From contig JBAYWG010000002.1 in NCBI GenBank assembly GCA_041674225.1, positions 34,841 to 98,840 on the forward strand: a DNA stretch of 64,000 nucleotides, in the 5' to 3' direction. The stretch is from Minisyncoccota bacterium. GTDB lineage: Bacteria; Patescibacteriota; Minisyncoccia; Phycocordibacterales; JAACPR01. How positions within the stretch are numbered: position 1 is the first letter of the stretch; every line of letters starts with the position of its first letter. The notes beneath the pieces were generated by a model that was not told the origin of the DNA, made no database searches, and worked only from the letters and a program-made list of their open reading frames with translations. Of this stretch, positions 25,411-41,370 are shown piece by piece. The translations under genes were made by a program, and so were the position numbers.

Positions 25411-25435
25411 ATTAGATGTGTTTGTTATGAGGGTT

Positions 25436-25690: not shown

Positions 25691-25955
25691 TGTTTAATCC
25701 TTTCGTTTGTATTTTATTTTTGGCGCTTCGATCGAGATAGTTTTCTGACCATCTTTTGCTACGATATATCGAAATAGTATAAAAAGAGGCATGAAAAATT
25801 CAATAAAACCCTCCTTGAAACTGTTTGTGATGATTTTGTTTATTTTACTCATGTTTAGGTGCTGTTTTAAAAGTAAAACTACCACTTGAGTTTATTGTGC
25901 GCAAGGCTGAAAAGAAAAAGAGCTTCACAGACTCGGGTCTGTGAAGCTTGTAATT

Positions 25956-26342
25956 TTACCAACTTAAATATGCTCGATCGAACATTCGAATCATGTCGAA
26001 GTGCATCGGAGTATTTTTCTCCGCTACGGCCATCACTTTACTCCGGTGCACGGAATAAATATTTTTTTCAATGTAACCAGAGGTCCCATCTAGATAAATA
26101 ATTACCCATTTGTTTTCCGTATCATATTCAATGATGGCAATTGTTCTGCGCACTCCGTCTTCCGGATTGAAACAGAGAATGTCTCCACGATCGGCATACT
26201 CGTTGAGTAAATTAAAGACTGCTTCCGCTTTCTTTTCTTCTTGAAGGGTTAATTTGGGATTTGATTTTGTGCATGAGCACATGATGACTGACGATACGAT
26301 CAGTCCCAGCAGGATTATTTTTTGAAGTGATTTCATGAACAT
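25956..26342 (-). CDS. secreted/lipoprotein-like hypothetical
   Basis: Signal peptide then Cys (VIMCSC). Confidence 0.4.
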   Translation of the reverse strand: MFMKSLQKIILLGLIVSSVIMCSCTKSNPKLTLQEEKKAEAVFNLLNEYADRGDILCFNPEDGVRRTIAIIEYDTENKWVIIYLDGTSGYIEKNIYSVHRSKVMAVAEKNTPMHFDMIRMFDRAYLSW

Positions 26343-26388
26343 TCAAAAAGCACATTATCATAAAGCAACATAATGTAAATAGTGTCAA

Positions 26389-26802
26389 TTAATGTTTACC
26401 CACAACTTTAAAAGTAAAAAATAAATTCATTAAATAATTGTAGCTACCAACTATTCCAGCAATAATAATTCGCGCAATCAAAAAATCAAAATTTAGTTTT
26501 TCCACAAATAAAGCCATTAATGCTACCACCATCAATAATCCAATTACTGTAACAGTTATAAAAATATAATATCCAGTCTTTAGTTCTCGTGTAGTTCTTG
26601 AAAATACAAATTTGCGGATGAAATAATAATGTATAGATACAGAAACTATAAAAGATAAAGCTGTAGATATTAGATAATTTATTAATAAAATATCTGTAAG
26701 AAAATATAATAGAAACAAATCAAGCAAAAAAGTAGAAAAACCTATTGAGAAATATTTTAGAAATCTAGATAAAGCTTTGTTCAAGGTAATTAAATTTAGC
26801 AC
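26389..26802 (-). CDS. GtrA-family membrane protein
   Basis: 137 aa, 4 TM; FSIGFSTFLLDLFLLYFL. Confidence 0.45.
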   Translation of the reverse strand: MLNLITLNKALSRFLKYFSIGFSTFLLDLFLLYFLTDILLINYLISTALSFIVSVSIHYYFIRKFVFSRTTRELKTGYYIFITVTVIGLLMVVALMALFVEKLNFDFLIARIIIAGIVGSYNYLMNLFFTFKVVGKH

Positions 26803-26831
26803 TTTTAAATTTATACTAAGATTGGTTTTTG

Positions 26832-28468: not shown

Positions 28469-28510
28469 AAAGAGCACACCCGCATTTCTGCAAAGTGTGC
28501 TCTCGCTCTT

Positions 28511-29098
28511 CTATGGAAGCCAATGATCAGGACACTGTACATAAATAATTCCAGAATTGATATTTTGGAGTTTCTCGATGAAACCTCTGATTGTCACTGG
28601 CATTTGAAGAACTTTTTCACCCTCCTCGAGATCTCTTTGCTCTGCAGATCTACTTGAACCATCTGGAATCCAGAATTTATCGCGTAGTCTGCGCAAAGCT
28701 TTCGTTTCCAATTCCATTTCAGCAAAAGGTAAATCATCTGGGAGACTCCGCACATATTCTTCGGATTTACCTTCGATTTCTGCCAGTGCTTTGTAAAATT
28801 TTGCAGCGGCATGTGCGAGTGTCCATGATGGTCTAATAACTTCACACCCACAAGGTAAACATTGTCCTCGTTGGAGTTGCTTTAGTTGATTTGTCCGTTC
28901 AGCTTCGCTCTCAGCAGAAGGGAATTCAACTGTTACTCGAGCTCTAAGTTTTGGCAGGTGACGGCTGAATCCAATCATTCGATCGTGACACTTCTCGCAC
29001 TTCTCGATGTGATCATCAATCTCTGACAAGTATTGTTTAATAAAACTGTGAAAGTCAAAATTTCTCTCCTGTATTATTTCATGTATTTTCATTGGCAC
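28511..29098 (-). CDS. Cys-rich (zinc-binding?) hypothetical protein at the left edge of the cassette array
   Basis: CEKCHDR...CLPCGCE...CPDHW. Confidence 0.45.
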   Translation of the reverse strand: MPMKIHEIIQERNFDFHSFIKQYLSEIDDHIEKCEKCHDRMIGFSRHLPKLRARVTVEFPSAESEAERTNQLKQLQRGQCLPCGCEVIRPSWTLAHAAAKFYKALAEIEGKSEEYVRSLPDDLPFAEMELETKALRRLRDKFWIPDGSSRSAEQRDLEEGEKVLQMPVTIRGFIEKLQNINSGIIYVQCPDHWLP

Positions 29099-29165
29099 TT
29101 TAAAGTACTAGTTGGTCTTAATCGTCATATTATATTTTTTAGGTTAAAAGTAAAGATGATATTTT

Positions 29166-29207
29166 AAAAAGAAAAAAGACCCTCAGAGATTTGAACTCAG
29201 TCAGGTC
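29166..29207 (-). terminator. weak hairpin plus T-run terminator of the leftmost cassette
   Basis: gacc...ggtc stem with an A-run on the plus strand. Confidence 0.3.
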
Positions 29208-29232
29208 TTGTAGCAACTTCAGTTTCAGGATG

Positions 29233-29427
29233 CTAAGCCTTTACCCACTCGAGCTTTTCCGTAGTGCCAGGGAACGAGGAATGGACGTGGAACCAAAACG
29301 ACCAGGATCCAGGGCAGGCAATCGTTTCGAATTCATGGTATTCACGGTCTTTCTCGTGGTCCTCGTTGCTCTGGAAGATTCCTTGTGGGTAGTTGATGAA
29401 TGCGATAAGGTACTTGGGCATAATCAA
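29233..29427 (-). CDS. cassette gene, hypothetical (64 aa)
   Basis: Preceded on the minus strand by TTGACA-16-TATAAT then 7 nt then ATG. Confidence 0.4.
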   Translation of the reverse strand: MIMPKYLIAFINYPQGIFQSNEDHEKDREYHEFETIACPGSWSFWFHVHSSFPGTTEKLEWVKA

Positions 29428-29461
29428 AATTATAATATAAATATTAGATATGTCAAATGTT

Positions 29462-29493
29462 TACTATGCGGACTTGTACTAGTCCGAACTAGT
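29462..29493 (-). repeat. R0: degenerate copy of the tRNA-3'-end-like direct repeat (tactatgcggacttgtactagtccgaactagt)
   Basis: Aligns to consensus tgctccgcggacttgggctagtccgaaccagt. Confidence 0.6.
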
Positions 29494-29525
29494 TTAGTGG
29501 GTAGAGAAAAACTAAACAATAAGAA

Positions 29526-29561
29526 AACCCACTGCAAGCAGGGGTTCCTGTTGAGTGGGTT
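29526..29561 (-). terminator. hairpin terminator for cassette 29576..29806
   Basis: aacccact...agtgggtt. Confidence 0.45.
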
Positions 29562-29575
29562 CAAGCTCCTAATTG

Positions 29576-29806
29576 TTATAGAGTGTTCACAAAGATAATC
29601 AATTGCATAAGTAGAAGACTGAGTTCGTAATCCACGATGCGATCATAGTCGATCTTTGTTTTTGTTGCTGTAAACATCTCTTCGACAATCAGTTGCTGTT
29701 CAGGGTTCAGGTACTTCTGTGTATTCACACCTCTGGAAACAAAATCTGCCATGCTTCCGTAATTGCTTTCTAGTGATTTTACAAAGTTGAATGCGTTTTG
29801 CGTCAT
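29576..29806 (-). CDS. cassette gene, hypothetical (76 aa); N-terminus and 5'UTR paralogous to 30840..31097
   Basis: Shared upstream ttggttgattgtgaaa and MxQ.aF N-terminus. Confidence 0.4.
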   Translation of the reverse strand: MTQNAFNFVKSLESNYGSMADFVSRGVNTQKYLNPEQQLIVEEMFTATKTKIDYDRIVDYELSLLLMQLIIFVNTL

Positions 29807-29903
29807 CTGTTTTCGGTTGGTTGATTGTGAAAAGTAAAAAAATCTTTCAAATAAATAATAACACTCTATAATTATTTGTCAAATATTTAATCAACAGACA
29901 TGT

Positions 29904-29919
29904 GTTGGTCCGAACCAGT
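29904..29919 (-). repeat. R1: truncated repeat (ttggtccgaaccagt)
   Basis: 3' half of the consensus repeat only. Confidence 0.45.
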
Positions 29920-29935
29920 TGGTAGCGTAGGAAAA

Positions 29936-29967
29936 TAAAAAACTCCACTATCTTGCAATAGTGGGTT
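29936..29967 (-). terminator. hairpin terminator (ccactat-cttgca-atagtgg)
   Basis: Near-identical to the terminator at 25384..25410. Confidence 0.5.
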
Positions 29968-29984
29968 TCTGGGTTGAGTGTGAT

Positions 29985-30167
29985 TTATAATCCAAAATCT
30001 TCTTCCTTTGGCATTTTTTTCAACCACCGCTCTCTCATGATTTTGGCATTTTCCTTCCTTTGTGAACCTTTTCCCATTAAGTATACGTACTCATTGAAAC
30101 TAAATGGACCTTTAAGCCCCCAACAGAAGAAGCTCCAAATGTATCTTATCTTTCGGACTATTTTCAT
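29985..30167 (-). CDS. cassette gene, hypothetical (60 aa)
   Basis: ORF between R2 and its terminator. Confidence 0.35.
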   Translation of the reverse strand: MKIVRKIRYIWSFFCWGLKGPFSFNEYVYLMGKGSQRKENAKIMRERWLKKMPKEEDFGL

Positions 30168-30211
30168 TCTAATTTAGATAAAAACATTATTATAAATCTT
30201 TGTCAAATATT

Positions 30212-30243
30212 TACTCCGCGGACTGAGACTAGTCCGAACCAGT
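30212..30243 (-). repeat. R2 repeat (tactccgcggactgagactagtccgaaccagt)
   Basis: Matches the consensus. Confidence 0.65.
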
Positions 30244-30275
30244 AACAATATTTGAAAATAATTATACAAAATAGA

Positions 30276-30309
30276 ATCCGCCCAGATCCTTAGTCGGAGC
30301 TGGGCGGAT
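30276..30309 (-). terminator. hairpin terminator (atccgcccag...ctgggcggat, 10-bp stem)
   Basis: Inverted repeat downstream of cassette 30351..30644. Confidence 0.55.
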
Positions 30310-30350
30310 GAAGTATCGGGTAGAACTTTTTCGAATTACACTGCCTCTGT

Positions 30351-30644
30351 CTAGAAACGAAGCTTAGCGATGATTTGTTCAAAAAGGTTCTCACCTTCAA
30401 CGATTTCTGCACATGTAACTATGCACGGATGGTTGTCGGGGTGCTGTTGAACGTGGATGTGTAATTCCACAAACGGTGGCCACACCCGAATCTCTTGCTT
30501 GCCATCATGAATAAGAACGTGTGCGTTTGTCACATCATCATCTTCGCTGAGGAGTGTGACGTTGGATATTCTCGATAAGTATTCCTGGAGAGCTGTGGCA
30601 AGAGGACTATCTTCAAGTCTGATACAAATCAAAGTGTGGTTCAT
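30351..30644 (-). CDS. cassette gene, hypothetical (97 aa)
   Basis: ORF with an upstream consensus promoter. Confidence 0.45.
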   Translation of the reverse strand: MNHTLICIRLEDSPLATALQEYLSRISNVTLLSEDDDVTNAHVLIHDGKQEIRVWPPFVELHIHVQQHPDNHPCIVTCAEIVEGENLFEQIIAKLRF

Positions 30645-30734
30645 GGGTATTGTAGTTTATGTTGTTTACTTGGACAGAATGCGAAAGTACTTTTAAACAA
30701 TATTATAATACATATTTATAAATATGTCAAACAA
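30645..30734 (-). promoter_or_regulatory. consensus sigma70 promoter TTGACA-17-TATAAT abutting R3
   Basis: Minus strand reads ggagcattgTTTGACAtatttataaatatgtatTATAAT. Confidence 0.55.
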
Positions 30735-30766
30735 TGCTCCGCGGGCTTGAGCTAATCCGAACTAGT
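30735..30766 (-). repeat. R3 repeat (tgctccgcgggcttgagctaatccgaactagt)
   Basis: Matches the consensus. Confidence 0.65.
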
Positions 30767-30789
30767 GTGGTGGTGTAGGAAATAAAAAA

Positions 30790-30832
30790 CCCACTATCTC
30801 ACGACAGGGATTTCCTGGTTGAGATAAAGGGT
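30790..30832 (-). terminator. imperfect long hairpin terminator
   Basis: ccc-act-atctca...tgagat-aaa-ggg. Confidence 0.4.
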
Positions 30833-30839
30833 TGTGGAT

Positions 30840-31097
30840 TCAACGGCAACTGTTGATATAGGTCGCGAGCGACAGGGTCATTTCGTAGCTTTCGATATCA
30901 GCATCTACGTCACCTTTAACGGTAACGGGTTTCGAAAAGATACTTGTTACTTTAGTGTAAACAAAAAACTGTTGTCGTTCACTCAGGATGGCTTCTTCAT
31001 TGATGGCGTCTCTGAGTTCACCGAGGAAGTGCCATTGGAAAGAGTCGGTTTTGAATTCCTTTGACATTTCATTTAAAAAATCTCTCGCGCTTTGCAT
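30840..31097 (-). CDS. cassette gene, hypothetical (85 aa)
   Basis: Paralogous N-terminus/UTR to 29576..29806. Confidence 0.4.
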   Translation of the reverse strand: MQSARDFLNEMSKEFKTDSFQWHFLGELRDAINEEAILSERQQFFVYTKVTSIFSKPVTVKGDVDADIESYEMTLSLATYINSCR

Positions 31098-31168
31098 TCG
31101 TTGGTTTTTGGTTGATTGTGAAATAACTTCTTCAATAAAATATAATAAATATTCAGTTTAGTCAATTT

Positions 31169-31200
31169 TGCTCCCTTTAGTGGACGAGTTTAGAACTCAG
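31169..31200. repeat. R11: degenerate repeat (tgctccctttagtggacgagtttagaactcag...gggttg)
   Basis: Partial match to consensus; about 80 percent match to R12. Confidence 0.4.
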
Positions 31201-31296
31201 AATTGGGTTGAAATAAAAAGGGAAGTTGAAATTTTCGGGATTTGGAGTTTGTTTCAAAGCATAGAAATAAGTAATTAATTTTAGTATCATTGGAGG

Positions 31297-31719
31297 ATGA
31301 GTAAACCATCTATGACACCCGTTGGAGCATATTACTTGTTCATATTTTTTATTGTTGGTGTTGCATTTGTATTATTTTTACATTTAGCACTAGTTCAAGA
31401 GGTTGTATTTTTTCAAAACATATATACAAATGGAATTATTATTTTGAGTTTTGTGATGTTATCCCTAGTTGTCCCTTTTAATATTAAGGAAATCATAGGA
31501 CAAAAAATAATCCCAATTTTTAAAATGTTTATAGCAATTAGAGGTGGTAGAGGAAGTTTTGACTTATTTGAATCAGAAGTGCAAGAACGAGCGAGGTTGC
31601 GCGTTGAATTGGATAGTAAAATAAAATCCAATACATTACTTTATTCTGTTTTTGTTGTACTTATTATTATCTCAATAATCGGCTTTATTGGTTTAATGAT
31701 TTATTCCGCAACTTTTTAA
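31297..31719 (+). CDS. membrane protein, hypothetical (only plus-strand cassette)
   Basis: GGAGG RBS 13 nt upstream; 4 TM helices. Confidence 0.5.
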   Translation: MSKPSMTPVGAYYLFIFFIVGVAFVLFLHLALVQEVVFFQNIYTNGIIILSFVMLSLVVPFNIKEIIGQKIIPIFKMFIAIRGGRGSFDLFESEVQERARLRVELDSKIKSNTLLYSVFVVLIIISIIGFIGLMIYSATF

Positions 31720-31731
31720 ACACTTTACTAT

Positions 31732-31786
31732 GCTTTACAATTACTCGGATACAGGGACGCATTTAGAACTTTTGATTGGGTTAGTT
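31732..31786. repeat. R12: degenerate repeat (ggacgcatttagaacttttgattgggttag)
   Basis: Direct repeat of R11 flanking the plus-strand gene. Confidence 0.4.
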
Positions 31787-31857
31787 TGTATCCAAATCCT
31801 GAATATCATTTAGAAAGAATAGGTAAGTTGTTGGTTTTAGCGAGATATTTTGTGTAA

Positions 31858-32355
31858 TTAATTTCTTTTTCTTAATAAACTTATGATTGCAGATAGACAA
31901 AGTATTCCTTCAGCTACAGCTCCTCCGATTGATCCTGAAAAAATATCATACAAAATCCAGCTTAGGTGTGATGGTATAAAAAGTACGCGCATTTTTTTGG
32001 TATTAAGTTGCCAACTTGCTACGATCGCAAATACTCCACCCACAAACGCTGCAATACCCCAAAGTGATTCAAGTGTGAAATATGTAGAAATACCAAGTAA
32101 TAAAATAAATAGCCACATTACAATCGGTTTACCAATCCAATTTGTATTGGTTTTAAATGAAAAGAGAGCCAATCGTAGTGCTGCAACGCTAGCAAGAGCT
32201 GCACCTGTGTATGCCTCAATAAGAATAAAGTGTGTAATCCAAAATACAAAACTTAAAAGTTGAACCAAGAGAATAGTTTTTCTTGAATTAAAATGATACG
32301 AAGAAAACCAGATACCCAAAGCAATTATAGCTAGTAATTGAATTAAAATTGCCAT
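31858..32355 (-). CDS. YgjV-like inner membrane protein
   Basis: 165 aa, multiple TM; resembles the YgjV family. Confidence 0.45.
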   Translation of the reverse strand: MAILIQLLAIIALGIWFSSYHFNSRKTILLVQLLSFVFWITHFILIEAYTGAALASVAALRLALFSFKTNTNWIGKPIVMWLFILLLGISTYFTLESLWGIAAFVGGVFAIVASWQLNTKKMRVLFIPSHLSWILYDIFSGSIGGAVAEGILCLSAIISLLRKRN

Positions 32356-32373
32356 ACATTGAGTTTATCAGAT

Positions 32374-32416
32374 AAAAGAAAAAACGGTGCAGACCTCAAA
32401 TGAGAATCTGCACCGC
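32374..32416 (-). terminator. hairpin terminator (cggtgcaga...tctgcaccg)
   Basis: 9-bp stem with A-run on the plus strand. Confidence 0.5.
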
Positions 32417-32440
32417 TAGGTGAATTGTTTTGTGATACTT

Positions 32441-33154
32441 TCAGAACTTCATCGAAATTCCGACACCACCAGCGATCTCGCTGTTGCCCTGGCCTGTGAG
32501 GGCTCGGGTGGAGAAGAACAACGTTGTGGTGTCATTCAATTCCAGGTTCAGCGTAAGATTGCTGCCGAAGTAAAGTCCAGGAGTGACTCCGAACCCGTCG
32601 TCATAAGACATAAACGGATTGACGTCGACTGAGACTTTATCAGCTACGGGAAAACGAGCATTGATGCCCGTGGAAATGTTCCAACCATTTCCAAGGAAAT
32701 TGTTACTGGTGTGGTAGTAGCGAGGTTGGATATACCAGCTCGTCGCAACTTCATCCCAGACAACAAAATCTTTTCCGAAAGTGACGTGAGCTGTGACGAT
32801 GTCGTCCCAGACCGATGCAGTTGGATTCACATTCCAGATACCAACTCCAGTGTTGAAGTTGAAACCGAGGATTTTGTGAGCCCAACCGAGGTTGAGATCA
32901 ATTTCGTCGCCCGCCGATGTTCCGCCGAGATCTTCAGAAGACCATATGCTTGCGTTGAAGCCGTGTGGCAGATTGATGACCAGAAGCGATTGAAGGCTGG
33001 GCTGGTCACTGACAACGACGGGGACTTGAAACAGCAGGTATTTGTCCCACACGGATGTGGAAACAAGACCTGAAAATTCGTAGCCCATTTCTTCAGCTTT
33101 GGAGGTGTTGCAGAAACCGATTGTAAGTATCACGATGGTAAAGAACTTTTTCAT
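32441..33154 (-). CDS. secreted beta-rich protein, OMP beta-barrel-like (signal peptide, C-terminal Phe)
   Basis: MKKFFTIVILTIGF signal; alternating hydrophobic pattern; ends ...ISMKF. Confidence 0.45.
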   Translation of the reverse strand: MKKFFTIVILTIGFCNTSKAEEMGYEFSGLVSTSVWDKYLLFQVPVVVSDQPSLQSLLVINLPHGFNASIWSSEDLGGTSAGDEIDLNLGWAHKILGFNFNTGVGIWNVNPTASVWDDIVTAHVTFGKDFVVWDEVATSWYIQPRYYHTSNNFLGNGWNISTGINARFPVADKVSVDVNPFMSYDDGFGVTPGLYFGSNLTLNLELNDTTTLFFSTRALTGQGNSEIAGGVGISMKF

Positions 33155-33434
33155 TTGTACAATAGAGTAGGTTTGATTTTGGTGTAGATTCACAAGTTAC
33201 TGATCACTCTTTGAAAGAGTCAGTTATGAAGCTACTTCCAGAATCAAAATAACTATATATTCCAACGAAATTTACTAATATTATAGCAATAAATATGCAT
33301 TATGTCAAGTCTATGTAGTGTAGGTCAAAGACGGGTTTTAAAATGCTATTGTAAAAAGTTCGAACCCTATTTACAGGTACGAGATTTCAGACTGTTGACT
33401 CTATGTTTATCAACGTGTTTTAGACGTTTTATTT

Positions 33435-33466
33435 TGCTCCGCGGACTTGCACTGGTCCGAACCAGC
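33435..33466 (-). repeat. R4 repeat
   Basis: tgctccgcggacttgcactggtccgaaccagc. Confidence 0.65.
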
Positions 33467-33491
33467 ACTTTGAAATTTATTTAATCTAAAA

Positions 33492-33977
33492 TTACTCAAC
33501 AATCTTAATTCTGTCAGAAGAAGGCATATCTTTTGATGTAACCTCAATAACATCTGAAGGTTCAACTTCTTCATAGGACCTCCATTCCATTGAATCAGTA
33601 GTTGCCACTTGGTCTCTTTTATATGGTTCGAAGTTGTTTTTATCAAAAACATACACAAAGCCTTTTTTATCTTTTACCTCTTTTAATACGTCCTCTGAAG
33701 AAACTCTAAATTCCGCATTACCGTCTCTTATGCCAAAACCACTTGTGTGATTTATAGAAACATTTTCTCTATTTATAAGCGCTCTAAAAGTTGCAAGTTC
33801 TGCATATGGAGTTGCTGAAACTGCTGGATTACCATCTAAGGTTGTTTCATCTGGTTTTGACCAATCAGGAACATGTCTTCCTTGTCGTGGTTCTAAGGAT
33901 TTGATGCTTCCATTAGGCGAACCATGAAATACATGTTTTCCTTCTTGCTCAAGTTTTTTAAGTTTTTCTATGGACAT
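33492..33977 (-). CDS. cassette gene, hypothetical (161 aa)
   Basis: Driven by a copy of the tRNA-proximal promoter flank. Confidence 0.45.
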   Translation of the reverse strand: MSIEKLKKLEQEGKHVFHGSPNGSIKSLEPRQGRHVPDWSKPDETTLDGNPAVSATPYAELATFRALINRENVSINHTSGFGIRDGNAEFRVSSEDVLKEVKDKKGFVYVFDKNNFEPYKRDQVATTDSMEWRSYEEVEPSDVIEVTSKDMPSSDRIKIVE

Positions 33978-33989
33978 AATTTAATTTTT

Positions 33990-34060
33990 TATACAAAAAG
34001 TATACCAAAGTTCGAACCTTCGGTCAGGGGTTAAAAATATATGTTTTAAAATAAAGACGA
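33990..34060 (-). promoter_or_regulatory. copy of the tRNA-Asn downstream flank carrying promoter CTGACC-17-TGgTATACT
   Basis: About 85 percent identical to 37330..37400. Confidence 0.5.
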
Positions 34061-34062
34061 AA

Positions 34063-34094
34063 TAAAGTGCTCCGCGGACTTGGGCTAGTCCGAA
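34063..34094 (-). repeat. R5 repeat (exact consensus)
   Basis: tgctccgcggacttgggctagtccgaaccagt. Confidence 0.7.
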
Positions 34095-34112
34095 CCAGTA
34101 TTGTGGTGTGAA

Positions 34113-34146
34113 ATAAAAATTGCGCCCTGTAGCTTGCTTTAGCTAA
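34113..34146 (-). terminator. hairpin terminator (tgcgccct...agggcgca)
   Basis: 8-bp GC stem plus inner stem. Confidence 0.55.
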
Positions 34147-34170
34147 AGGGCGCAGTTGAAAACATTTTTC

Positions 34171-34473
34171 TTAGTGCGGTAGCCGCTTATAACCAGTTTT
34201 CTTGTTTAGGATGCGATGGTAATTGGTCGATGTTGGATGAGGAATGACTCTCACCTCCACTAGTTCGAATTCAGGAACGCTGAGGAGGATGTTGTGCTCA
34301 ACTTCGGTCACCATCAATCTGACGGTCGTATTAAAACCACTACCACGGCTGTTAATCGAAGAAAACATGACCTTTATTGTTTCTCCAACTCGTGGCACTG
34401 CGTTTCTTTTTACATCAACGATATTGTAATACCACAAACCGTTTGCAAAAAGGTTTAATTGAACTCGGTACAT
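34171..34473 (-). CDS. cassette gene, hypothetical (100 aa)
   Basis: ORF between R5 and R6. Confidence 0.4.
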   Translation of the reverse strand: MYRVQLNLFANGLWYYNIVDVKRNAVPRVGETIKVMFSSINSRGSGFNTTVRLMVTEVEHNILLSVPEFELVEVRVIPHPTSTNYHRILNKKTGYKRLPH

Positions 34474-34586
34474 CTTTGATAATTTGGTGTATGGTTTGGC
34501 ACACCTGGGTTCCTCCTAGAACCACTAGCCGTTTTAAAATAACTTCTTCGTTAAATTACAATGAAAAATATATAAAGTCAAATATT

Positions 34587-34618
34587 TGCTCCTCGGACTT
34601 GGGTTGGTCCGAACCAGT
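34587..34618 (-). repeat. R6 repeat
   Basis: tgctcctcggacttgggttggtccgaaccagt. Confidence 0.65.
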
Positions 34619-34642
34619 GTTGCGGGGTAGGTAAATAAAAAG

Positions 34643-34675
34643 GGCCTGAAAGACATTCAGTCAAACAGGCCTTTG
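34643..34675 (-). terminator. hairpin terminator (agggcctg...caggcctt)
   Basis: 8-bp stem with one G-U. Confidence 0.45.
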
Positions 34676-34681
34676 GGTTTG

Positions 34682-35017
34682 TTAATCAATGATTTCGAAT
34701 ACGAAATTCTGAGCTTCATCGGCGTCGCCGTCTGGTCCCATGACGCATTGACACGCGCCGTCTTTTAAAGGACCTTGAATCACGAAACCGTTTTGAAGTT
34801 GAATTTCAATACCCCAAGCTAAATTTAAACTGTTATCTTCGTCTGAATTTTTATCGTGCCGATAAAAATTGAGACCAGATACGGTCGAAACTATTGTTCC
34901 AATGCTGTGTTCCTCATGACGAGTTACAGAACATTTTTTCCCAATGATTTCTGATGCTGACGGAAGACCAGCTTCGGTTAGTTCAGAATTAAGAACTTGC
35001 AAGTTTTGGTTTTTCAT
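34682..35017 (-). CDS. cassette gene, hypothetical (111 aa)
   Basis: ORF between R6 and R7. Confidence 0.4.
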   Translation of the reverse strand: MKNQNLQVLNSELTEAGLPSASEIIGKKCSVTRHEEHSIGTIVSTVSGLNFYRHDKNSDEDNSLNLAWGIEIQLQNGFVIQGPLKDGACQCVMGPDGDADEAQNFVFEIID

Positions 35018-35073
35018 AGAATAAAATACATTTTTTTTAAATTAACATAATATAACATCTATGTCAAATAATT

Positions 35074-35105
35074 TGCTCCGCGGACTTGTGCTAGCTCGAA
35101 CCAGT
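35074..35105 (-). repeat. R7 repeat; abuts the stop codon of the GNAT gene
   Basis: tgctccgcggacttgtgctagctcgaaccagt. Confidence 0.65.
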
Positions 35106-35558
35106 TTATTTAGATAAATCTTTAATTATGTGAGTTGCTTTATGTTCCTCAGTTTTTTCAAATCCAAGAGATTCATAGAGTGAAATTGCGACTGGATTTT
35201 TTGTAGAAAGACGCAGGGATGTGAAGTGTTGTTTTGCTCTGTTTATAATGAGCTTCATTAAAATTTTTGATAATCCTAATCCTCTATATTTTTTCATAAT
35301 ATAAACATGACGCACCCTACCAACTTCTGGATTTTCAGTATAAGGGTCTTGATTTAAACCACCTAATCCAATGATTTCATCATCTATTGTAAGTCCCCAA
35401 AGTTTTTCACTTGGTTTTGAGAAAGTGTTTACACCACTTCGCCATTCATCGATAGTTTTTTGAATAAAAAGGTCTCCATCAAGTGTAGATTCGTTAGCCA
35501 TATCTTGAAGTATTGATATATTCGAATCATTAATTTCTATAATTTTATAGTCAGGCAT
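35106..35558 (-). CDS. GNAT-family N-acetyltransferase (AAC-like size)
   Basis: Acetyl-CoA motif RGLGLSKILMKLI; 150 aa; TGaTATAAT 6 nt upstream (leaderless). Confidence 0.6.
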   Translation of the reverse strand: MPDYKIIEINDSNISILQDMANESTLDGDLFIQKTIDEWRSGVNTFSKPSEKLWGLTIDDEIIGLGGLNQDPYTENPEVGRVRHVYIMKKYRGLGLSKILMKLIINRAKQHFTSLRLSTKNPVAISLYESLGFEKTEEHKATHIIKDLSK

Positions 35559-35580
35559 TATTAAATTATATCAAATGTAT

Positions 35581-35612
35581 TTGCACCGCGGACTTGGGCT
35601 AGCTCGAACCAG
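35581..35612 (-). repeat. R8 repeat
   Basis: tgcaccgcggacttgggctagctcgaaccagt. Confidence 0.65.
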
Positions 35613-35632
35613 TTTGTAAATAAAAACACGAA

Positions 35633-35665
35633 AGCCCCAACCGAAGTCGAAGCTTCGTGGGGCTG
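35633..35665 (-). terminator. hairpin terminator (agcccca...tggggct)
   Basis: 7-bp stem plus extended pairing. Confidence 0.45.
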
Positions 35666-35667
35666 TT

Positions 35668-35865
35668 TCAGATGAAAAGCATGACAATGAACGGAGCAAT
35701 TAAGGCGCCCGTTACCAAAGAGAGTGTCCAAGTTGTTTCCTGTGTCCATTTGCGGTTTTTGTCGATGGACTTGATGGTGAGACCAACAACCAAAGCAATG
35801 ACGATAATGAGAACTAGGCACAAAACTTGAAAACCAAATGACGATGGTGTTCCTGATGGTAGCAT
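35668..35865 (-). CDS. small membrane protein (65 aa) with strong RBS
   Basis: AGGAGG 8 nt upstream of the ATG; two TM helices. Confidence 0.5.
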   Translation of the reverse strand: MLPSGTPSSFGFQVLCLVLIIVIALVVGLTIKSIDKNRKWTQETTWTLSLVTGALIAPFIVMLFI

Positions 35866-35945
35866 CTTATACCTCCTTTCTATTTTAATGTTTAAACTAA
35901 AGAACGAATCTTACTTATATAATAAATATTACATAACGTCAATTT

Positions 35946-35977
35946 TGCTCCGCGGACTTGTGCTAGTCCGAACCAGT
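35946..35977 (-). repeat. R9 repeat
   Basis: tgctccgcggacttgtgctagtccgaaccagt. Confidence 0.65.
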
Positions 35978-36011
35978 GTGGTGGGGTAGGAAAAGACAAT
36001 TGGGATGGTAA

Positions 36012-36722
36012 CTACTTTATAAACTCTTGTATCATTTTCTTCGTGTATGAGTCCACTTTGTCCTTATTTTCTAAAAGGTGTTGTTTACAATATCCAGCAT
36101 CTTTGTTCTTATAAAAAATATCGATTAACTGGGATTCTTCTTCGTTAGCTTTTTGTTTTATGTTTGTGTAAGAAAAAGGGAAGTGTTCATTTCTCTTGAG
36201 TTGAGAATAGTAAATTATTCTCATGATTCCTTTGAGATGATATTGCACAAAACCATCTCCTACATTTGTTGAATCATCCCATTGGTCTCTGATTATTTTC
36301 TTTATTTCCAGACTAATTAATTCATCTGGTATAGCAGGGTTGTTAGTAAAGTCTTCAGTTGAATATATTTTTCCGAATACTTGCTTCCAGTCTTTCATAT
36401 CTGAAAGTAATATTCTTGGATGTATCACTGTGGTAATTGAGCTATCTTTTCCGACACCTTCTTTTAGCTCGTCTTCTCTGATTACATTAAATCCAAAATA
36501 TTTGAAATCATCAAAACATTCATTAATCTTTTCTTTAATAGAAGATTGGTCAATCGAATTCTCTGACTTAACTATTGCGATAATATCTATGTCACTTGTT
36601 TCAATATCAAACTCTCCAGTAGTTATTGAGCCCCATAGATATGCTGAAAGTAATCCATCTTTCTCATATTCTTGAAAGAATTTATTTAAATGCTCCTCTA
36701 GATTGTTTTTATCGAATTTCAT
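36012..36722 (-). CDS. nucleotidyltransferase, ANT(3'')(9)/Lnu-like
   Basis: NTase motif YLWGSITTGEFDIETSDIDIIAIV (compare AadA LYGSAVDGGLKPHSDIDLLV); helical C-terminal domain; TATAAT 6 nt before ATG. Confidence 0.6.
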   Translation of the reverse strand: MKFDKNNLEEHLNKFFQEYEKDGLLSAYLWGSITTGEFDIETSDIDIIAIVKSENSIDQSSIKEKINECFDDFKYFGFNVIREDELKEGVGKDSSITTVIHPRILLSDMKDWKQVFGKIYSTEDFTNNPAIPDELISLEIKKIIRDQWDDSTNVGDGFVQYHLKGIMRIIYYSQLKRNEHFPFSYTNIKQKANEEESQLIDIFYKNKDAGYCKQHLLENKDKVDSYTKKMIQEFIK

Positions 36723-36776
36723 TTTGACATTATAGCAAAGTCTTAAAACTCTACTAATAAAATCGGATTTTTCAAT

Positions 36777-36808
36777 TGCTCCGCGGACTTGGGCTAGCTC
36801 GAACCAGT
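36777..36808 (-). repeat. R10 repeat
   Basis: tgctccgcggacttgggctagctcgaaccagt. Confidence 0.65.
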
Positions 36809-36819
36809 TTGGAATGTCA

Positions 36820-37329
36820 TTAGTCCTGTATCTCCATTAAAACAGAGTCCATTACTTCTCTGGGTTCCATATTTGTAGTATCAATTACCTTGAAACCTAA
36901 GTGGCTACGATTTTTAAAAATAGAAATATTATTTCTAGCTCGTTCTTCTGTTAGGTCACCGTTATTTTCTTGAGTTCTTTTTACTACTCTTTGAAGAGCA
37001 ATATCTGGATTAGCATGTAATTGAAATTTATAACAATGAATTTTTCTATCTTGAGCAAGAGTCGTGTAGAAATCAATCTCTTCCTCCGTTTTAAATGGAT
37101 TCTCAACTATTACAGATAATCCAAGGTCTAAGTATTTTGCTGCCATTACCATGGTTACTTCTCGGGCTATTTGATTATCTTGAATTCCTCTTTCAAAGTC
37201 AGATATAAACCTTTTAATTTTATCAAAACCAACGATTGCTGTTCTAGGAAGTTCTTTTGATAAGGATTTTGATAGTGTGGTCTTTCCAGCTCCAGACATT
37301 CCGTCTAATAGTATTAATTTTTGTTTCAT
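36820..37329 (-). CDS. P-loop kinase, chloramphenicol-phosphotransferase-like (AAA_33 family)
   Basis: LILLDGMSGAGKTTLSKSL...AIVGFD resembles CPT MIILNGGSSAGKSG...LAFGVD; 169 aa. Confidence 0.55.
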   Translation of the reverse strand: MKQKLILLDGMSGAGKTTLSKSLSKELPRTAIVGFDKIKRFISDFERGIQDNQIAREVTMVMAAKYLDLGLSVIVENPFKTEEEIDFYTTLAQDRKIHCYKFQLHANPDIALQRVVKRTQENNGDLTEERARNNISIFKNRSHLGFKVIDTTNMEPREVMDSVLMEIQD

Positions 37330-37400
37330 ATAAAAAGTATACCAAGGTTCGAACCTTCAGTCAGGGGTTAATAATATATGCTTTAAAATAAAGGTGTACT
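37330..37400 (-). promoter_or_regulatory. promoter immediately downstream of tRNA-Asn (CTGACC-17-TGgTATACT) driving the kinase gene
   Basis: Minus strand cccctgactgaaggttcgaaccttggtatactttttatATG. Confidence 0.45.
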
Positions 37401-37404
37401 AAAG

Positions 37405-37478
37405 TGCTCCCCCGGCAGGATTCGAACCTGCGACCCATCGCTTAACAGGCGATTGCTCTACCGCTGAGCTACAAGGGA
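37405..37478 (-). tRNA. tRNA-Asn (anticodon GTT)
   Basis: Minus strand TCCCTTG-TA-GCTCAGCGGTAGAGC-A-ATCGC-CTGTTAA-GCGAT-GGGTC-GCAGGTTCGAATCCTGC-CGGGGGA-G; cloverleaf with U1-A72 and discriminator G as in E. coli tRNA-Asn. Confidence 0.85.
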
Positions 37479-37548
37479 ATGTAACAACTTTGCTATGTTA
37501 TCAATCCAAAAGGCTTATGTCCAGCTTAATTTTTGCTATATTTGAGAC

Positions 37549-40167: not shown

Positions 40168-40214
40168 ATGGCCTAGTATATAGGAATTTTCAAAAGAAAA
40201 AACCCCCGAAGGGG

Positions 40215-40754
40215 TTACCAAGTTTCGCCATTTGGTTTTTCTTTATATTCTTTCAGTTTATAGACTGTTGTCTCATTAGCTTCGAGTTTTTCCCATCTTT
40301 TTGCAGGATTATTGTCGTTTTTGCGACTAAACAATTCAATTACTCTTTCCTTGATTAGACCCAGAGAAGGATGTAAATCGCTCTTGTTTATTTTCTCTGT
40401 TTGCAACTCTGTTCTTACTATTTGGAAATAGCTCGAGTTAGATTCAGAAATCTCTCGGACTGATTTAATAGGAATCGAATTAAAAGTGACACCCTTTTTC
40501 ATCAGTATTAATATTTTGTATTCTGGAACATATCCTCCGAAACCAACATTGTATTGCAGTACAATCACTGCAATTTTGCGGTCAAAGATTAACACCGGAT
40601 TAGTGATCATCTCACCTTTCTGGAGTAGGAGAGCAATTGTTTCCTCGAGTTTTTCGCAAAAATTACGAAACTTAAACATATCTTCTACACTGTTCATTTG
40701 TACTGTTGTTTGGAATTCAAATTCAAAACTACACTTCCAAAAATAAAAAGTCAA
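40215..40754 (-). CDS. hypothetical protein, tandem paralog A
   Basis: Paralogous to 40785..41291; terminator aacccccgaaggggtt overlaps its stop. Confidence 0.45.
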   Translation of the reverse strand: MTFYFWKCSFEFEFQTTVQMNSVEDMFKFRNFCEKLEETIALLLQKGEMITNPVLIFDRKIAVIVLQYNVGFGGYVPEYKILILMKKGVTFNSIPIKSVREISESNSSYFQIVRTELQTEKINKSDLHPSLGLIKERVIELFSRKNDNNPAKRWEKLEANETTVYKLKEYKEKPNGETW

Positions 40755-40784
40755 TTAAATAAAAAACCCCCGGAGGGGTTGTGG

Positions 40785-41291
40785 TTATTCTGGTGAAATA
40801 GTATAGGTGACTTGTTTTTCCGCATACAATTCCTCCCATCCATGTTGTGGAATTTCGGTGTTAATGTTAAAAATTCCTCCCATAACTTTTTTCAGCTGCT
40901 CGATTGCCTCAAGTTGTCTCTTGGCGAAAAATAATTGCTTATCTTCTGCGGGTTTAAATTCCGTTGTGGATTTAAAACTGGATGTAAGAACTAGATTTTT
41001 TACACAAGTATCCCATTCCATTTTGGTAATTACTTCAAGATTACCACAAGGATCCCAATTGAATCCCTTTGGAATTATCACAATCAATTCAACTACTGTG
41101 AATTCCGGAGGAATCCCCGCATCACCTGAGTTTTCACAGATAACTAAACCTGCTAATTTTCTGTCATAGATTTGAATTGGACTCACAATATCAAATCCTC
41201 TTTTCTGAAAATTTAATAAGTCAGTGATAGAATCAGTCAATTCATTAATAAAGTTTACAAAAGCATACGCATCTTTTATACCTGGACTCAT
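40785..41291 (-). CDS. hypothetical protein, tandem paralog B
   Basis: Shares IYDRK...PEF...KG motifs and duplicated UTR/terminator (aacccccggaggggtt). Confidence 0.45.
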   Translation of the reverse strand: MSPGIKDAYAFVNFINELTDSITDLLNFQKRGFDIVSPIQIYDRKLAGLVICENSGDAGIPPEFTVVELIVIIPKGFNWDPCGNLEVITKMEWDTCVKNLVLTSSFKSTTEFKPAEDKQLFFAKRQLEAIEQLKKVMGGIFNINTEIPQHGWEELYAEKQVTYTISPE

Positions 41292-41370
41292 TATAATGTA
41301 CTTAATTGGTTAGTTTTGAATTCAAATCTCAAAATACACCTCTAAAAAATAAAAGTCAATTTGCGAAAAA

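What the first reader, a model, noticed from the sequence alone, without database searches (positions are those of the whole stretch)
29190..37480. Integrase-less tandem cassette array anchored at tRNA-Asn, each cassette headed by a repeat mimicking the tRNA 3' end
Immediately downstream of tRNA-Asn(GTT) (minus strand, 37405-37478) lie at least 13 short, mostly single-gene, co-oriented units. Each unit starts, in minus-strand reading order, with a conserved direct repeat, followed by a sigma70-type promoter, one small ORF of 60-250 aa, and often a GC-rich hairpin terminator. The repeat consensus on the plus strand is (t)gtcaaat..tgctccgcggacttgggctagtccgaaccagt(gtggtggggtaggaaataaaaa). The R5 copy (34063-34094) occupies the position the tRNA 3' end (gtgctcccccggcaggattcgaacctgcgacc) holds relative to a duplicated 70-bp promoter flank, so the repeats behave like pseudo-attB/tRNA-3'-end copies. 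Ten good copies (R0, R2-R10) and two or three degenerate ones are present. No integrase, transposase or intI is in the window. This resembles a CALIN/integron-like or tRNA-hotspot gene-cassette system, but with different repeat chemistry and per-cassette promoters. I do not recognise it as a described element type.
Basis: seen in the sequence. Interest (0 to 1): 0.9.

Follow-up and report, generated by a model that had tools for sequence, protein, structure and literature searches.

The report
Serine-recombinase gene-cassette array at tRNA-Asn
Next to a tRNA-Asn gene of an uncultured Paceibacteria (CPR) bacterium lies a strain-variable row of about 14 small self-promoted gene units, each ending in a 27-47 bp repeat that is best read as the phage-type (attP) half-site of a large serine recombinase found at this same junction in related genomes.

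Summary
The window has 11 co-oriented copies of a 32-nt repeat, plus 2 copies of a diverged family. All lie between 29462 and 36808, downstream of tRNA-Asn (37406-37478, minus strand), and none lies elsewhere in the 64 kb. No recombinase gene is in the window.

The repeat does resemble the tRNA 3' end, but it is not a copy of it. In 8 tRNA-Asn genes the T-loop motif GTTCGAAT ends 14 nt before the end of GGAGC. In 38 repeats from 9 loci the motif GTTCGRAC ends 19 nt before it. A 5-bp outward shift of this kind separates attP from attB half-sites of large serine recombinases (LSRs).

Related Paceibacteria carry an LSR gene abutting this tRNA junction (L027, L019, L010) or at internal repeat junctions (L023, L026, and a remnant in L012). 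In the attP arrangement the LSR reading frame ends inside the repeat.

The locus is hypervariable. A close relative has 1 unit, and one species shows three different contents. One unit, bounded by repeats, recurs in another genome's array.

It works like ccr-less SCC cassettes, at integron-like scale. It is a new variant of a known kind. Whether the recombinase-less units move individually is unproven.

The parts
37406..37478 (-). tRNA-Asn(GTT), intact. Its 3' end ...GTTCGAATCCTGCCGGGGGAGC is the proposed attB-type left half-site, with the junction at GGAGC|A.
   Evidence: ARAGORN; Rfam tRNA 69.9 bits; motif-to-GGAGC distance 14 nt.
36777..37405 (-). Unit 1: class B leader (CTTTAG...CTGACT-N17-TATACT, with the palindrome AAGGTTCGAACCTT at 37344-37357), an AAA_33/zeta-toxin-like kinase ORF (36820-37329) and a P-arm repeat (36777-36808).
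35946..36776 (-). Unit 2: leader, nucleotidyltransferase ORF (36012-36722) and P arm (35946-35977). The same unit occurs in the array of another genome (L010 556-1413).
   Evidence: Pfam NTP_transf_2/Polbeta; 79% aa and 80% nt identity over 818 nt, bounded by repeats, with unrelated neighbours.
35582..35945 (-). Unit 3: 65-aa membrane-like ORF (35668-35865), a conserved terminator module (35621-35668) and P arm (35582-35613).
   Evidence: The terminator module is 96% identical in L007 and 92.6% identical in L005/L012.
35074..35581 (-). Unit 4: GNAT acetyltransferase ORF (35106-35558). The P arm (35074-35105) starts right after the stop codon.
34587..35073 (-). Unit 5: TTGACA-type leader, 111-aa ORF (34682-35017), hairpin and P arm (34587-34618).
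34068..34586 (-). Unit 6: leader with a conserved ~100-nt 5' UTR also found ahead of an unrelated gene in L012, 100-aa ORF (34171-34473), hairpin and P arm (34068-34099).
   Evidence: (window 34487-34641 against L003 271-422, 79%).
33435..34067 (-). Unit 7: class B leader, a duplicate of the tRNA-proximal leader (33976-34073 against 37313-37410), 161-aa ORF (33492-33977) and P arm (33435-33466).
   Evidence: (repeat D4, 85%).
31743..33434 (-). Unit 8: consensus promoter (33308-33280), 250-aa ORF with GC3 of 0.55 (32441-33193), terminator, YgjV-family membrane ORF (31858-32355) and a degenerate variant-family P arm (31743-31770).
31170..31742 (-). Unit 9: a 140-aa membrane-like ORF on the opposite strand (31297-31719, plus strand) and a variant-family P arm GAGTTCTAAACTCGTCCACTAAAGGGAGC (31170-31198).
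   Evidence: homology to the L012 variant repeats (window 31160-31230 against L003 1720-1790).
30735..31169 (-). Unit 10: 85-aa ORF (30840-31097), hairpin and P arm (30735-30766).
30212..30734 (-). Unit 11: 12/12 consensus promoter (30730-30702), 97-aa ORF (30351-30644), hairpin and P arm (30212-30243).
29888..30211 (-). Unit 12: 60-aa ORF (29985-30167), terminator (29964-29945) and a degenerate P arm (29888-29919).
29462..29887 (-). Unit 13: promoter (29882-29855), 76-aa ORF (29576-29806), terminator (29542-29528) and P arm (29462-29493).
29190..29461 (-). Unit 14: 12/12 consensus promoter (29456-29429), 64-aa ORF with GC3 of 0.66 (29233-29427) and a hairpin. It has no terminal repeat.
28480..29189 (-). 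Distal variable segment: a 195-aa ORF (28511-29098) with no family match. It is absent from the close relative L007, whose shared flank resumes at window ~28471.

Best explanation
The region is an insertion hotspot at the 3' end of tRNA-Asn in a Paceibacteria (CPR/Patescibacteria) chromosome. It was built by site-specific recombination of a family of large serine recombinases (LSRs).

The tRNA 3' end supplies the attB-type left half-site: a zinc-ribbon-domain (ZD)-type motif GTTCGAAT, followed 14 nt later by GGAGC. Each direct repeat is an attP-type left half-site, or 'P arm': GTTCGRAC, a variable 7-8-nt linker, then AGTCCGCGGAGC, with the outer motif 5 bp further from the crossover. The crossover is at or next to the GC of GGAGC (tRNA positions G73-C74).

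In autonomous elements the LSR gene lies on the other side of the crossover, reads towards it and ends inside the P arm. This explains the conserved extension CTACCCCACCAC, which is Val-Val-Gly-stop on the other strand, and the adjacent bidirectional terminator.

Each unit in the window is leader/promoter + ORF(s) + (terminator) + P arm. New DNA enters at the tRNA-proximal junction and pushes older units outwards.

The window's array is an orphan, with no LSR in 64 kb. Present-day excision or capture of its units would need an LSR supplied in trans, as with ccr-less SCC cassettes. Homologous recombination between the 47-95-nt conserved modules probably also shuffles and deletes units.

Shown: the repeat anatomy, the 14/19-nt geometry, LSR genes at the junction in relatives, hypervariability, and one shared unit.

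Inferred: which protein domain reads which block, the exact crossover dinucleotide, the order of insertion, and trans-mobilisation of single units.
For: 1. Geometry. In 8 of 8 tRNA-Asn genes (window, L007, L008, L010, L012, L017-19) GTTCGAAT ends 14 nt before the end of GGAGC. In 38 of 38 repeats of three sequence families, from 9 loci, the figure is 19 nt; a fourth family, with a 9-nt motif, has 18 nt. The conservation profile shows two conserved blocks separated by a variable linker. Rutherford et al. 2013 showed that the ZD motif lies at positions 16-24 in attP and 11-19 in attB, a 5-bp shift (PMC3783163).

2. LSR at the junction. L019 ORF 4623-6173 has Resolvase + Recombinase + Zn_ribbon_recom domains. 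Its last 9 codons are encoded by the tRNA 3' end. In L027 an LSR (379-1911) overlaps tRNA-Asn (1870-1944), next to the same PF1765-like/S30AE/PPIase genes as in the window. In L010 a second LSR (E = 5e-50) lies about 90 nt from the tRNA 3' end by homology, and its 560-aa ORF runs across that end.

3. Internal repeat|LSR junctions. L023 has an intact LSR, with 3 small units between it and the contig end. L026 has another. L012 has a 27-codon LSR remnant, which I read by hand as WLRGLGLVRTSVMG* through a window-type repeat.

4. All 11 window repeats translate as [LIH][RCLN][GR][LH].L.RTS... in that frame, with a stop 1-9 codons after RTS.

5. LSR family. 1401 proteins at E <= 1e-30, and those that carry a source name are almost all named Paceibacterota/Patescibacteria. 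Their C-terminal tails diverge just after the conserved ...SPNWL: 40 of 120 are tRNA-type tails, and PRQDSNLRPIA is the reverse translation of the window-type tRNA-Asn; 12 of 120 are P-arm-type tails.

6. Hypervariability. L007 (PPIase 97% identical) has 1 unit against about 14 in the window. One species with an identical PPIase has three different contents, all diverging right after GGAGC.

7. Unit 2 recurs, bounded by repeats, at a different position in the L010 array.

8. The repeats are about 90% identical between genomes whose core genes are about 70-78% identical. Half of the ORFs have foreign GC3 of 0.43-0.66, against a host-like 0.19-0.32.
Against: - There is no LSR in the window and no LSR-side (P') remnant. 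The rest of the genome could not be searched.
- The right-hand side of the junctions in recombinase-less units is not conserved, and the TTGACA distance from GGAGC varies, so these sites have only one good half-site.
- Canonical LSRs recombine only attP x attB. Insertion into an occupied site (attL x attP) would need relaxed specificity or a directionality factor, and neither is shown.
- No circular intermediate and no empty site was seen. L026 is not demonstrably circular.
- The central dinucleotide is only bracketed, to within GGAGC.
- With the centre placed at GC, the outer motif sits at about 14-21 and 19-26, a few bp further out than in the LI integrase.
- The coding-like frame of the repeats is not independent of a DNA-binding constraint.
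Confidence: 0.75

Rival explanations
1. The repeats, together with their conserved terminator and leader modules, act mainly as portable homology. Units are gained, lost and exchanged by RecA-type homologous recombination, for example after DNA uptake, much as proposed for the promoter-stem-loop (PeSL) modules of T4-type phages. The LSR only created the first sites.
For: Conserved modules of 47-95 nt at 80-96% identity flank unrelated genes within and between genomes. Whole-array replacement between L017 and L018 could use the core flanks. Both distal ends look like illegitimate deletions: a truncated repeat in L007, and no terminal repeat in the window.
Against: The tRNA and the repeats share only 5-12 nt, yet every tRNA|unit junction is in register at GGAGC. 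That is too short for homologous recombination. This model also does not explain the fixed 19-nt geometry kept across four sequence families.
Confidence: 0.15
2. The array is only a graveyard. Each repeat is the distal scar of a once complete LSR element whose recombinase and most of its cargo were later deleted, and the small units were never mobile on their own.
For: LSR decay is seen directly in L012, where a 27-codon remnant survives. The array ends are degraded. The right half-sites are unconserved.
Against: Random deletions would not leave a promoter/leader abutting GGAGC in dozens of units. Unit 2 is shared with its leader and both flanking repeats between distant genomes. No P' or LSR remnant is left anywhere in the window array.
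Confidence: 0.15
3. It is an integron-like or tycheposon-like system run by a tyrosine recombinase, with the repeats serving as attC-like folded sites or as partial-tRNA att sites.
For: Single-gene cassettes occur in one orientation, the window array is recombinase-less like a CALIN, and it is anchored at a tRNA like a tycheposon island.
Against: No tyrosine recombinase was seen in any array region whose genes were annotated or scanned. LSRs sit at the junction in five genomes. The GGACT/AGTCC hairpin is possible in only a minority of the 38 copies (read). The repeats are not partial tRNA copies, because they are 5 bp longer. Every unit carries its own promoter.
Confidence: 0.04
4. The repeat is a generic intergenic element (a REP-like element, a regulator-binding site or a tRNA-like RNA processing signal) unrelated to DNA mobility.
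For: It lies just upstream of promoters. In units without a terminator it would be transcribed as a 3' UTR.
Against: There are no copies outside the array in 64 kb. In other genomes it occurs only at the same tRNA-Asn locus. There is no Rfam match.
Confidence: 0.03

Closest known systems
Staphylococcal cassette chromosome (SCC/SCCmec) composite islands driven by the Ccr large serine recombinases
   Same: Tandem cassettes are inserted at the 3' end of a conserved gene. They are separated by direct repeats that carry the recombinase site. Many cassettes lack a recombinase and are mobilised in trans by one encoded in a neighbour, and cargo is accessory or defence genes (PMC11470126). Here the LSR elements carry Type III and other restriction-modification systems.
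   Different: The target is tRNA-Asn, not rlmH. Units are 0.3-1.7 kb, mostly one gene with its own promoter, against 15-60 kb. The host is a CPR bacterium. Whether the LSR belongs to the Ccr clade was not tested. Trans-mobilisation has not been shown here.
Large serine (phage) integrase attP/attB sites (LI/A118, Bxb1, phiC31 paradigm)
   Same: Half-sites have two blocks, an inner block and an outer (ZD) block, and the outer block is 5 bp further out in attP than in attB (PMC3783163). The integrase gene lies next to attP.
   Different: Many attP-type half-sites are arrayed in the chromosome with unconserved partner halves. The LSR reading frame crosses the crossover site. The family is absent from IMG/VR viral contigs apart from relatives at 19-24% identity.
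Tycheposons and tRNA-anchored genomic islands of Prochlorococcus
   Same: Islands grow at a tRNA 3' end by successive site-specific integrations that push older elements outwards. A minority of these elements use large serine recombinases. Remnants and extra att copies are scattered through the islands (10.1101/2020.12.28.424599).
   Different: Tycheposon repeats are partial copies of the tRNA, and the elements are several kb long with integration and replication modules. Here the repeats are a distinct attP-type sequence, and most units are single genes with no mobility genes.
Integrons and CALINs (clusters of attC sites lacking an integron-integrase)
   Same: A dense, one-directional array of mostly single-gene cassettes of small, often unknown ORFs, with an orphan array lacking a recombinase and strong strain-to-strain variability.
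   Different: There is no tyrosine recombinase, no folded attC palindrome and no common Pc promoter, since each unit has its own. The repeats are conserved in sequence and spacing rather than in structure.

Membership tests
Large serine recombinase att site (attP-type half-site) | A recombinase with Resolvase + Recombinase + zinc-ribbon domains is encoded at or next to the site. | tested here: inconclusive
   Not present in the window. Present at the same junction in L019, L027 and L010, and at internal repeat junctions in L023 and L026.
Large serine recombinase att site (attP-type half-site) | The outer (ZD) motif is about 5 bp further from the crossover in attP than in attB. | tested here: met
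   14 nt in 8 of 8 tRNA-Asn genes and 19 nt in 38 of 38 repeats. Reference geometry is from PMC3783163.
Large serine recombinase att site (attP-type half-site) | attB and attP share an identical central dinucleotide, and sequence exchange occurs exactly there. | tested here: inconclusive
   All junctions switch immediately after GGAGC. The LSR tails diverge right after the WL residues encoded by the reverse complement of GAGCCA. The dinucleotide itself is bracketed, not mapped.
Large serine recombinase att site (attP-type half-site) | There are two half-sites in imperfect dyad symmetry. | tested here: inconclusive
   By eye, repeat|LSR junctions show AGTCC...GGACT and GTTCGRAC...GTTCTAG at roughly symmetric distances (sequences). 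The right side of recombinase-less units is unconserved.
Large serine recombinase att site (attP-type half-site) | Recombination activity on the site. | not testable with these tools
   This needs in vitro or in vivo assays, or read-level evidence.
Integron / CALIN | attC sites: imperfect palindromes (R''-L''...L'-R') that fold as single-stranded hairpins. | tested here: not met
   The only candidate stem (CGGACT/AGTCCG) is possible in a minority of the 38 copies and is absent from two repeat families (read). No attC model was available to run.
Integron / CALIN | An IntI tyrosine recombinase in complete integrons of the lineage. | tested here: not met
   No tyrosine recombinase was seen in any array region whose genes were annotated or scanned; serine recombinases were found instead.
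Integron / CALIN | Mostly promoterless cassettes expressed from a common Pc promoter. | tested here: not met
   TTGACA-N16-18-TATAAT-like sites follow individual repeats, four of them matching 11-12 of 12 positions.
SCC-type composite island | Tandem cassettes delimited by recombinase-site repeats at the 3' end of a conserved gene, some without a recombinase. | tested here: met
   SCC description from PMC11470126.
SCC-type composite island | Ccr-family recombinases and an rlmH (orfX) target. | tested here: not met
   The target is tRNA-Asn. The relation of the LSR to the Ccr clade was not tested.
Tycheposon | Flanking repeats are partial copies of the target tRNA, and the elements carry integrase plus replication modules. 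| tested here: not met
   The repeats differ from the tRNA by a 5-nt longer linker and by sequence. Units carry no mobility or replication genes. Definition.

The most novel reading that the evidence does not exclude
Paceibacteria run an integron-like gene-capture platform based on a large serine recombinase rather than a tyrosine recombinase. Non-autonomous, self-promoted single-gene cassettes carry only an attP-type half-site. They are inserted and excised at the tRNA-Asn junction in trans, through site pairings such as attL x attP that canonical serine integrases do not perform.
Probability: 0.3. Interest if true: 0.8.

Novelty: new variant of a known kind. Interest (0 to 1): 0.65.

Why it matters
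CPR/Patescibacteria have tiny genomes, and how they acquire genes is poorly understood. This locus points to a concrete and widespread route: the LSR family has more than 1400 members at E <= 1e-30. Accessory genes (kinases, nucleotidyl- and acetyl-transferases, restriction-modification systems and many small unknown ORFs) would be captured and swapped at a single tRNA.

The arrays also hold dozens of natural attP-type half-sites beside their attB. The 5-bp zinc-ribbon-motif rule of serine integrases can be read directly from them, and this may supply new tRNA-targeting integrases with defined sites. If single-gene units really move in trans, it would be a serine-recombinase counterpart of the integron.

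Three full-text literature searches found no description of it.

Tried and rejected
- Rfam on the whole window, and a permissive search on the array, found only the tRNA. A known RNA family is rejected.
- The repeat pattern in IMG/VR viral contigs gave 0 hits. LSR searches in IMG/VR, with a single sequence and with a 20-sequence alignment, found only relatives at 19-24% identity. There is no evidence for a phage vehicle.
- Exact-protein look-ups of two window array or flank proteins found nothing on record.
- The genome-contig scan gave only one other genome and the metagenome scan only three contigs. Exact-pattern scans under-sample diverged repeat families.
- A search for an LSR-side (P') remnant in the window and in other LSR-less arrays, allowing up to 13 of 43 mismatches, found none.
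- A terminal-overlap test for circularity of the 6.6-kb LSR contig L026 was negative.
- The hairpin idea (ggact/agtcc, or CTGGT-TCGG-ACTAG) was dropped, because neither stem is kept across the repeat families.
- An arm-type-site, tyrosine-integrase reading of the TATGAAC x3 motif in the P0094 species was considered. It was not pursued once the LSR was found.
- Region-wide promoter and terminator counts barely exceed shuffles, so they are not used as evidence.
- Literature searches for Parcubacteria + integron, CPR + genomic island + tRNA, and serine recombinase + Patescibacteria + tRNA returned nothing relevant.

Full report
OBSERVATION

ARAGORN and Rfam place one tRNA-Asn(GTT) gene at 37406-37478 on the minus strand. 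Downstream of it, reading the minus strand, a fuzzy search with the 32-nt consensus ACTGGTTCGGACTAGCCCAAGTCCGCGGAGCA finds 11 copies, at 29462-36808. All have one orientation, and none lies anywhere else in the 64 kb on either strand. A spaced pattern gives 9 hits against 0 in 100 shuffles. Two further copies of a diverged family lie at 31170-31198 and 31743-31770 (the family was recognised in L012).

The 98-nt flank shared by the tRNA 3' end and the copy at 34068 is real, at 85% identity. Between repeats lie mostly single minus-strand ORFs of 60-250 aa. Several repeats are followed by consensus sigma-70 promoters, and some ORFs by hairpin terminators, but region-wide counts barely exceed shuffles.

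Family scans of the window's ORFs found only housekeeping and accessory functions and no recombinase or transposase. The scans covered all ORFs of at least 150 aa outside the stretches syntenic with L007/L008, plus most array ORFs of at least 97 aa. The stretches syntenic with L007/L008 carry only core-gene families in the precomputed annotation.

CONTEXT

The window is a bacterial chromosome with 32-39% GC. It carries divergent core genes: PriA, PBP2, enolase, iPGM, aminoacyl-tRNA synthetases and ATP synthase. The identical PPIase is on record from a 106.6-kb contig, and a source names a fragment of it 'MAG: Candidatus Paceibacterota bacterium'.

Array ORFs include an AAA_33/zeta-like kinase, a nucleotidyltransferase, a GNAT, a YgjV membrane protein and many ORFs with no family. 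Half of them have GC3 of 0.43-0.66, against 0.19-0.32 for the rest, and the core has 35% GC. That fits foreign origin.

THE REPEAT AND THE tRNA

Scans of public collections found the repeat in only a few places. These were one Parcubacteria MAG (L002), three metagenome contigs (L003-L006) and no viral contig. In each it forms an array of the same kind.

In L004 the array follows a tRNA-Asn whose 3' end...GTTCGAATCTTGTCCGCGGAGCA, shares its last 12 nt with the window's repeat. It is not a copy, however.

- In all 8 tRNA-Asn genes examined, the T-loop motif GTTCGAAT ends 14 nt before the end of GGAGC.
- In all 38 repeats of three sequence families, from 9 loci, GTTCGRAC ends 19 nt before it.
- A fourth family, with a 9-nt motif, has 18 nt.

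Conservation is concentrated in two blocks, GTTCGRAC and AGTCCGCGGAGC. They are separated by a variable 7-8-nt linker, and conservation collapses immediately to the right of GGAGC.

THE LOCUS IS HYPERVARIABLE

I fetched syntenic loci through PPIase homologues.

- L007 has 97% PPIase identity and 88-93% nucleotide identity in the flanks. It has the tRNA, one 97-aa unit and a truncated repeat, then the shared flank. The window has about 14 units, about 9 kb, in the same place.
- One species with a 100% identical PPIase shows three contents: ten genes (L017), four different genes (L018), or an LSR plus a Type III restriction-modification system (L019). All three diverge immediately after ...GTCCGCGGAGC. 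L017 and L018 rejoin at a distal repeat.
- L012, L008 and L010+L002 hold further arrays.
- Unit 2 of the window (nucleotidyltransferase) recurs in L010, about 8 kb from the tRNA. It is 79% identical in protein and 80% in DNA over 818 nt. The homology runs from one repeat through leader and gene to the next repeat, and the neighbours are unrelated.

Repeats and an adjoining terminator module are 90-96% identical between genomes whose core DNA is 70-90% identical.

THE RECOMBINASE

In L019 an uncalled 516-codon ORF (4623-6173) converges on the tRNA. It has Resolvase, Recombinase and Zn_ribbon_recom domains, so it is a large serine recombinase. Its last nine codons, WLRGQDSNL*, are the reverse complement of the tRNA 3' end.

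- L010 has a second, 26%-identical LSR. Its homology ends about 90 nt from the tRNA 3' end, and its 560-aa ORF runs across that end.
- L027 has the same PF1765-like/S30AE/PPIase neighbours as the window. Its LSR (379-1911) overlaps tRNA-Asn (1870-1944).
- L023 and L026 have intact LSRs at internal repeat|LSR junctions. In L023 three small repeat-terminated units lie between the LSR and the contig end.
- In L012 the last junction keeps 27 LSR codons at 78% identity. I read them by hand as WLRGLGLVRTSVMG* through a window-type repeat.

The conserved extension CTACCCCACCAC of the window repeats is therefore Val-Val-Gly-stop of an LSR gene in its attP arrangement. All 11 window copies translate as [LIH][RCLN][GR][LH].L.RTS... 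in that frame, with a stop 1-9 codons after RTS.

The LSR family is large: 1401 proteins at E <= 1e-30, and the top 120 are at least 63% identical. Those that carry a source name are almost all named Paceibacterota or Patescibacteria. Their tails diverge right after ...SPNWL. Of the 120, 40 are tRNA-type, including PRQDSNLRPIA, which is the reverse translation of the window-type tRNA-Asn. Another 12 are repeat-type (..DDVRT..), 55 stop within two residues, and 13 are other.

MECHANISM

Rutherford et al. 2013 showed that serine-integrase half-sites have an inner block and an outer zinc-ribbon-domain (ZD) motif. The outer motif lies at positions 16-24 in attP and 11-19 in attB, a 5-bp shift (PMC3783163). 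The 19 against 14 nt found here matches that rule.

I therefore read the tRNA 3' end as the attB left half and each repeat as an attP left half (a 'P arm'). The crossover is in or next to the GC of GGAGC. The LSR gene lies on the P' side and reads across the core. Integration gives tRNA|P'-LSR...cargo-terminator-P arm|old flank. Repeated entry at the tRNA-proximal junction yields the array. Internal repeat|LSR junctions (L012, L023, L026) are what this order of events predicts.

Shown:
- the anatomy and the geometry;
- LSR genes at the junction in relatives;
- the variability of the locus;
- one shared unit.

Inferred:
- the assignment of protein domains to sequence blocks;
- the exact crossover dinucleotide;
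- the insertion order;
- that recombinase-less units are moved in trans.

The last point is the weakest. The right halves of these junctions are unconserved. Canonical LSRs do not recombine an occupied site. No circles or empty sites were seen. The SCC system does show that LSRs (Ccr) can mobilise tandem recombinase-less cassettes in every combination (PMC11470126). The LSR elements here also carry a small HTH_17 gene that could act as a directionality factor, but that is speculation.

RIVALS

Homologous recombination between the conserved modules surely contributes. It may explain whole-array swaps and the ragged distal ends. It cannot create in-register tRNA|unit junctions from 5-12 nt of identity.

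A pure 'graveyard' of decayed LSR elements does not explain leaders abutting GGAGC in dozens of units, or the shared unit 2.

Tyrosine-recombinase models (integron, tycheposon) fail on three counts: no tyrosine recombinase was seen in any array region whose genes were annotated or scanned, no conserved hairpin exists, and the repeats are not partial tRNA copies.

A generic REP or regulatory element is excluded, because the repeat is confined to this one locus.

COMPARISON AND NOVELTY

Functionally the closest system is the SCC composite island. The site logic is that of phage serine integrases. The island-building logic is that of tycheposons. The scale and look are those of an integron or CALIN.

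It is not a member of the integron, tycheposon or SCC families, because defining features were tested and not met. I rate it a new variant of a known kind: an array of single-gene, self-promoted units anchored at tRNA-Asn and associated with an LSR, in CPR bacteria. Three literature searches found no description of it.

LIMITS

Only 64 kb of the genome could be searched for the recombinase. Exact-pattern scans under-sample diverged arrays. No read-level or experimental evidence of recombination was available.

Noticed in passing
L008 8633-9234 and L010 8916-9186 (the window's own tRNA, 37406-37478, is uninterrupted): In two related genomes the tRNA-Asn gene is split after nucleotide 34, in the anticodon loop, by a group I intron (Rfam Intron_gpI, 79.8 and 80.8 bits). 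The L008 intron also holds an ORF that looks like an HNH endonuclease by eye. ARAGORN misses these tRNAs.
   Followed up: partly
window 37344-37357, 34007-34020 and 33357-33366; also L017 (several copies): The 'class B' leaders carry a palindrome AAGGTTCGAACCTT between their -35 and -10 elements. It contains the same GTTCGAAC word as the outer block of the recombination half-site, about 50 nt downstream of the junction. It could be an operator, possibly bound by the recombinase's zinc-ribbon domain, but this is unexplained.
   Followed up: no
window 34487-34580 and 31100-31165; L012 6420-6520: A conserved ~100-nt 5' UTR (CATTGTAATTTAACGAAGAAGTTATTT...GCTAGTGGTTC...GGTGTGCCAAACCATACAC) precedes unrelated ORFs in different units and genomes. 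Leaders, ORFs and terminator-repeat modules seem to assort independently. Whether the UTR is a regulatory RNA was not tested beyond the negative Rfam search.
   Followed up: no
L017 1290-1470, 5400-5560 and 7700-7900; L018 7960-8100 and 8685-8805: In the P0094 species the junctions carry three direct TATGAAC-like words (TATGAAC-N3-ATGAAC-N3-ATGAAC), either left or right of GGAGC. One 'empty' unit consists only of this motif between two repeats. Its function is unknown; it could be an accessory-factor site.
   Followed up: no
window 40195-41370: A second small variable spot: two ORFs (40215-40754 and 40785-41291) between the deformylase and PriA genes are absent from the close relative L007. 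Other relatives have ORFs of different sizes there.
   Followed up: no
window 22054-26831: About 4.8 kb (TrmB-like regulator, two TPM-domain proteins, LemA and small ORFs) corresponds to only about 0.9 kb in L007, so this is another strain-variable segment. No repeats of the array type occur there.
   Followed up: no
L019 19-4651; L023 4988-10004; L026 156-3899: The autonomous LSR elements carry restriction-modification systems (Type III Mod+Res, or other N6 methyltransferase genes). L023 and L026 also carry a small HTH_17 (excisionase-family) gene, so the recombinase appears to travel with defence cargo.
   Followed up: partly
window 36782 (start of L001): An independent short-read assembly of the same strain (L001, 100% identical over 7628 nt) breaks inside the first repeat. 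The L023 contig also ends at GGAGCA. These arrays fragment short-read assemblies and are probably under-represented in MAGs.
   Followed up: no
window 11875-12510: A LexA-like repressor (Peptidase_S24 plus a LexA DNA-binding domain) is encoded about 17 kb from the array. No link to the array was examined.
   Followed up: no
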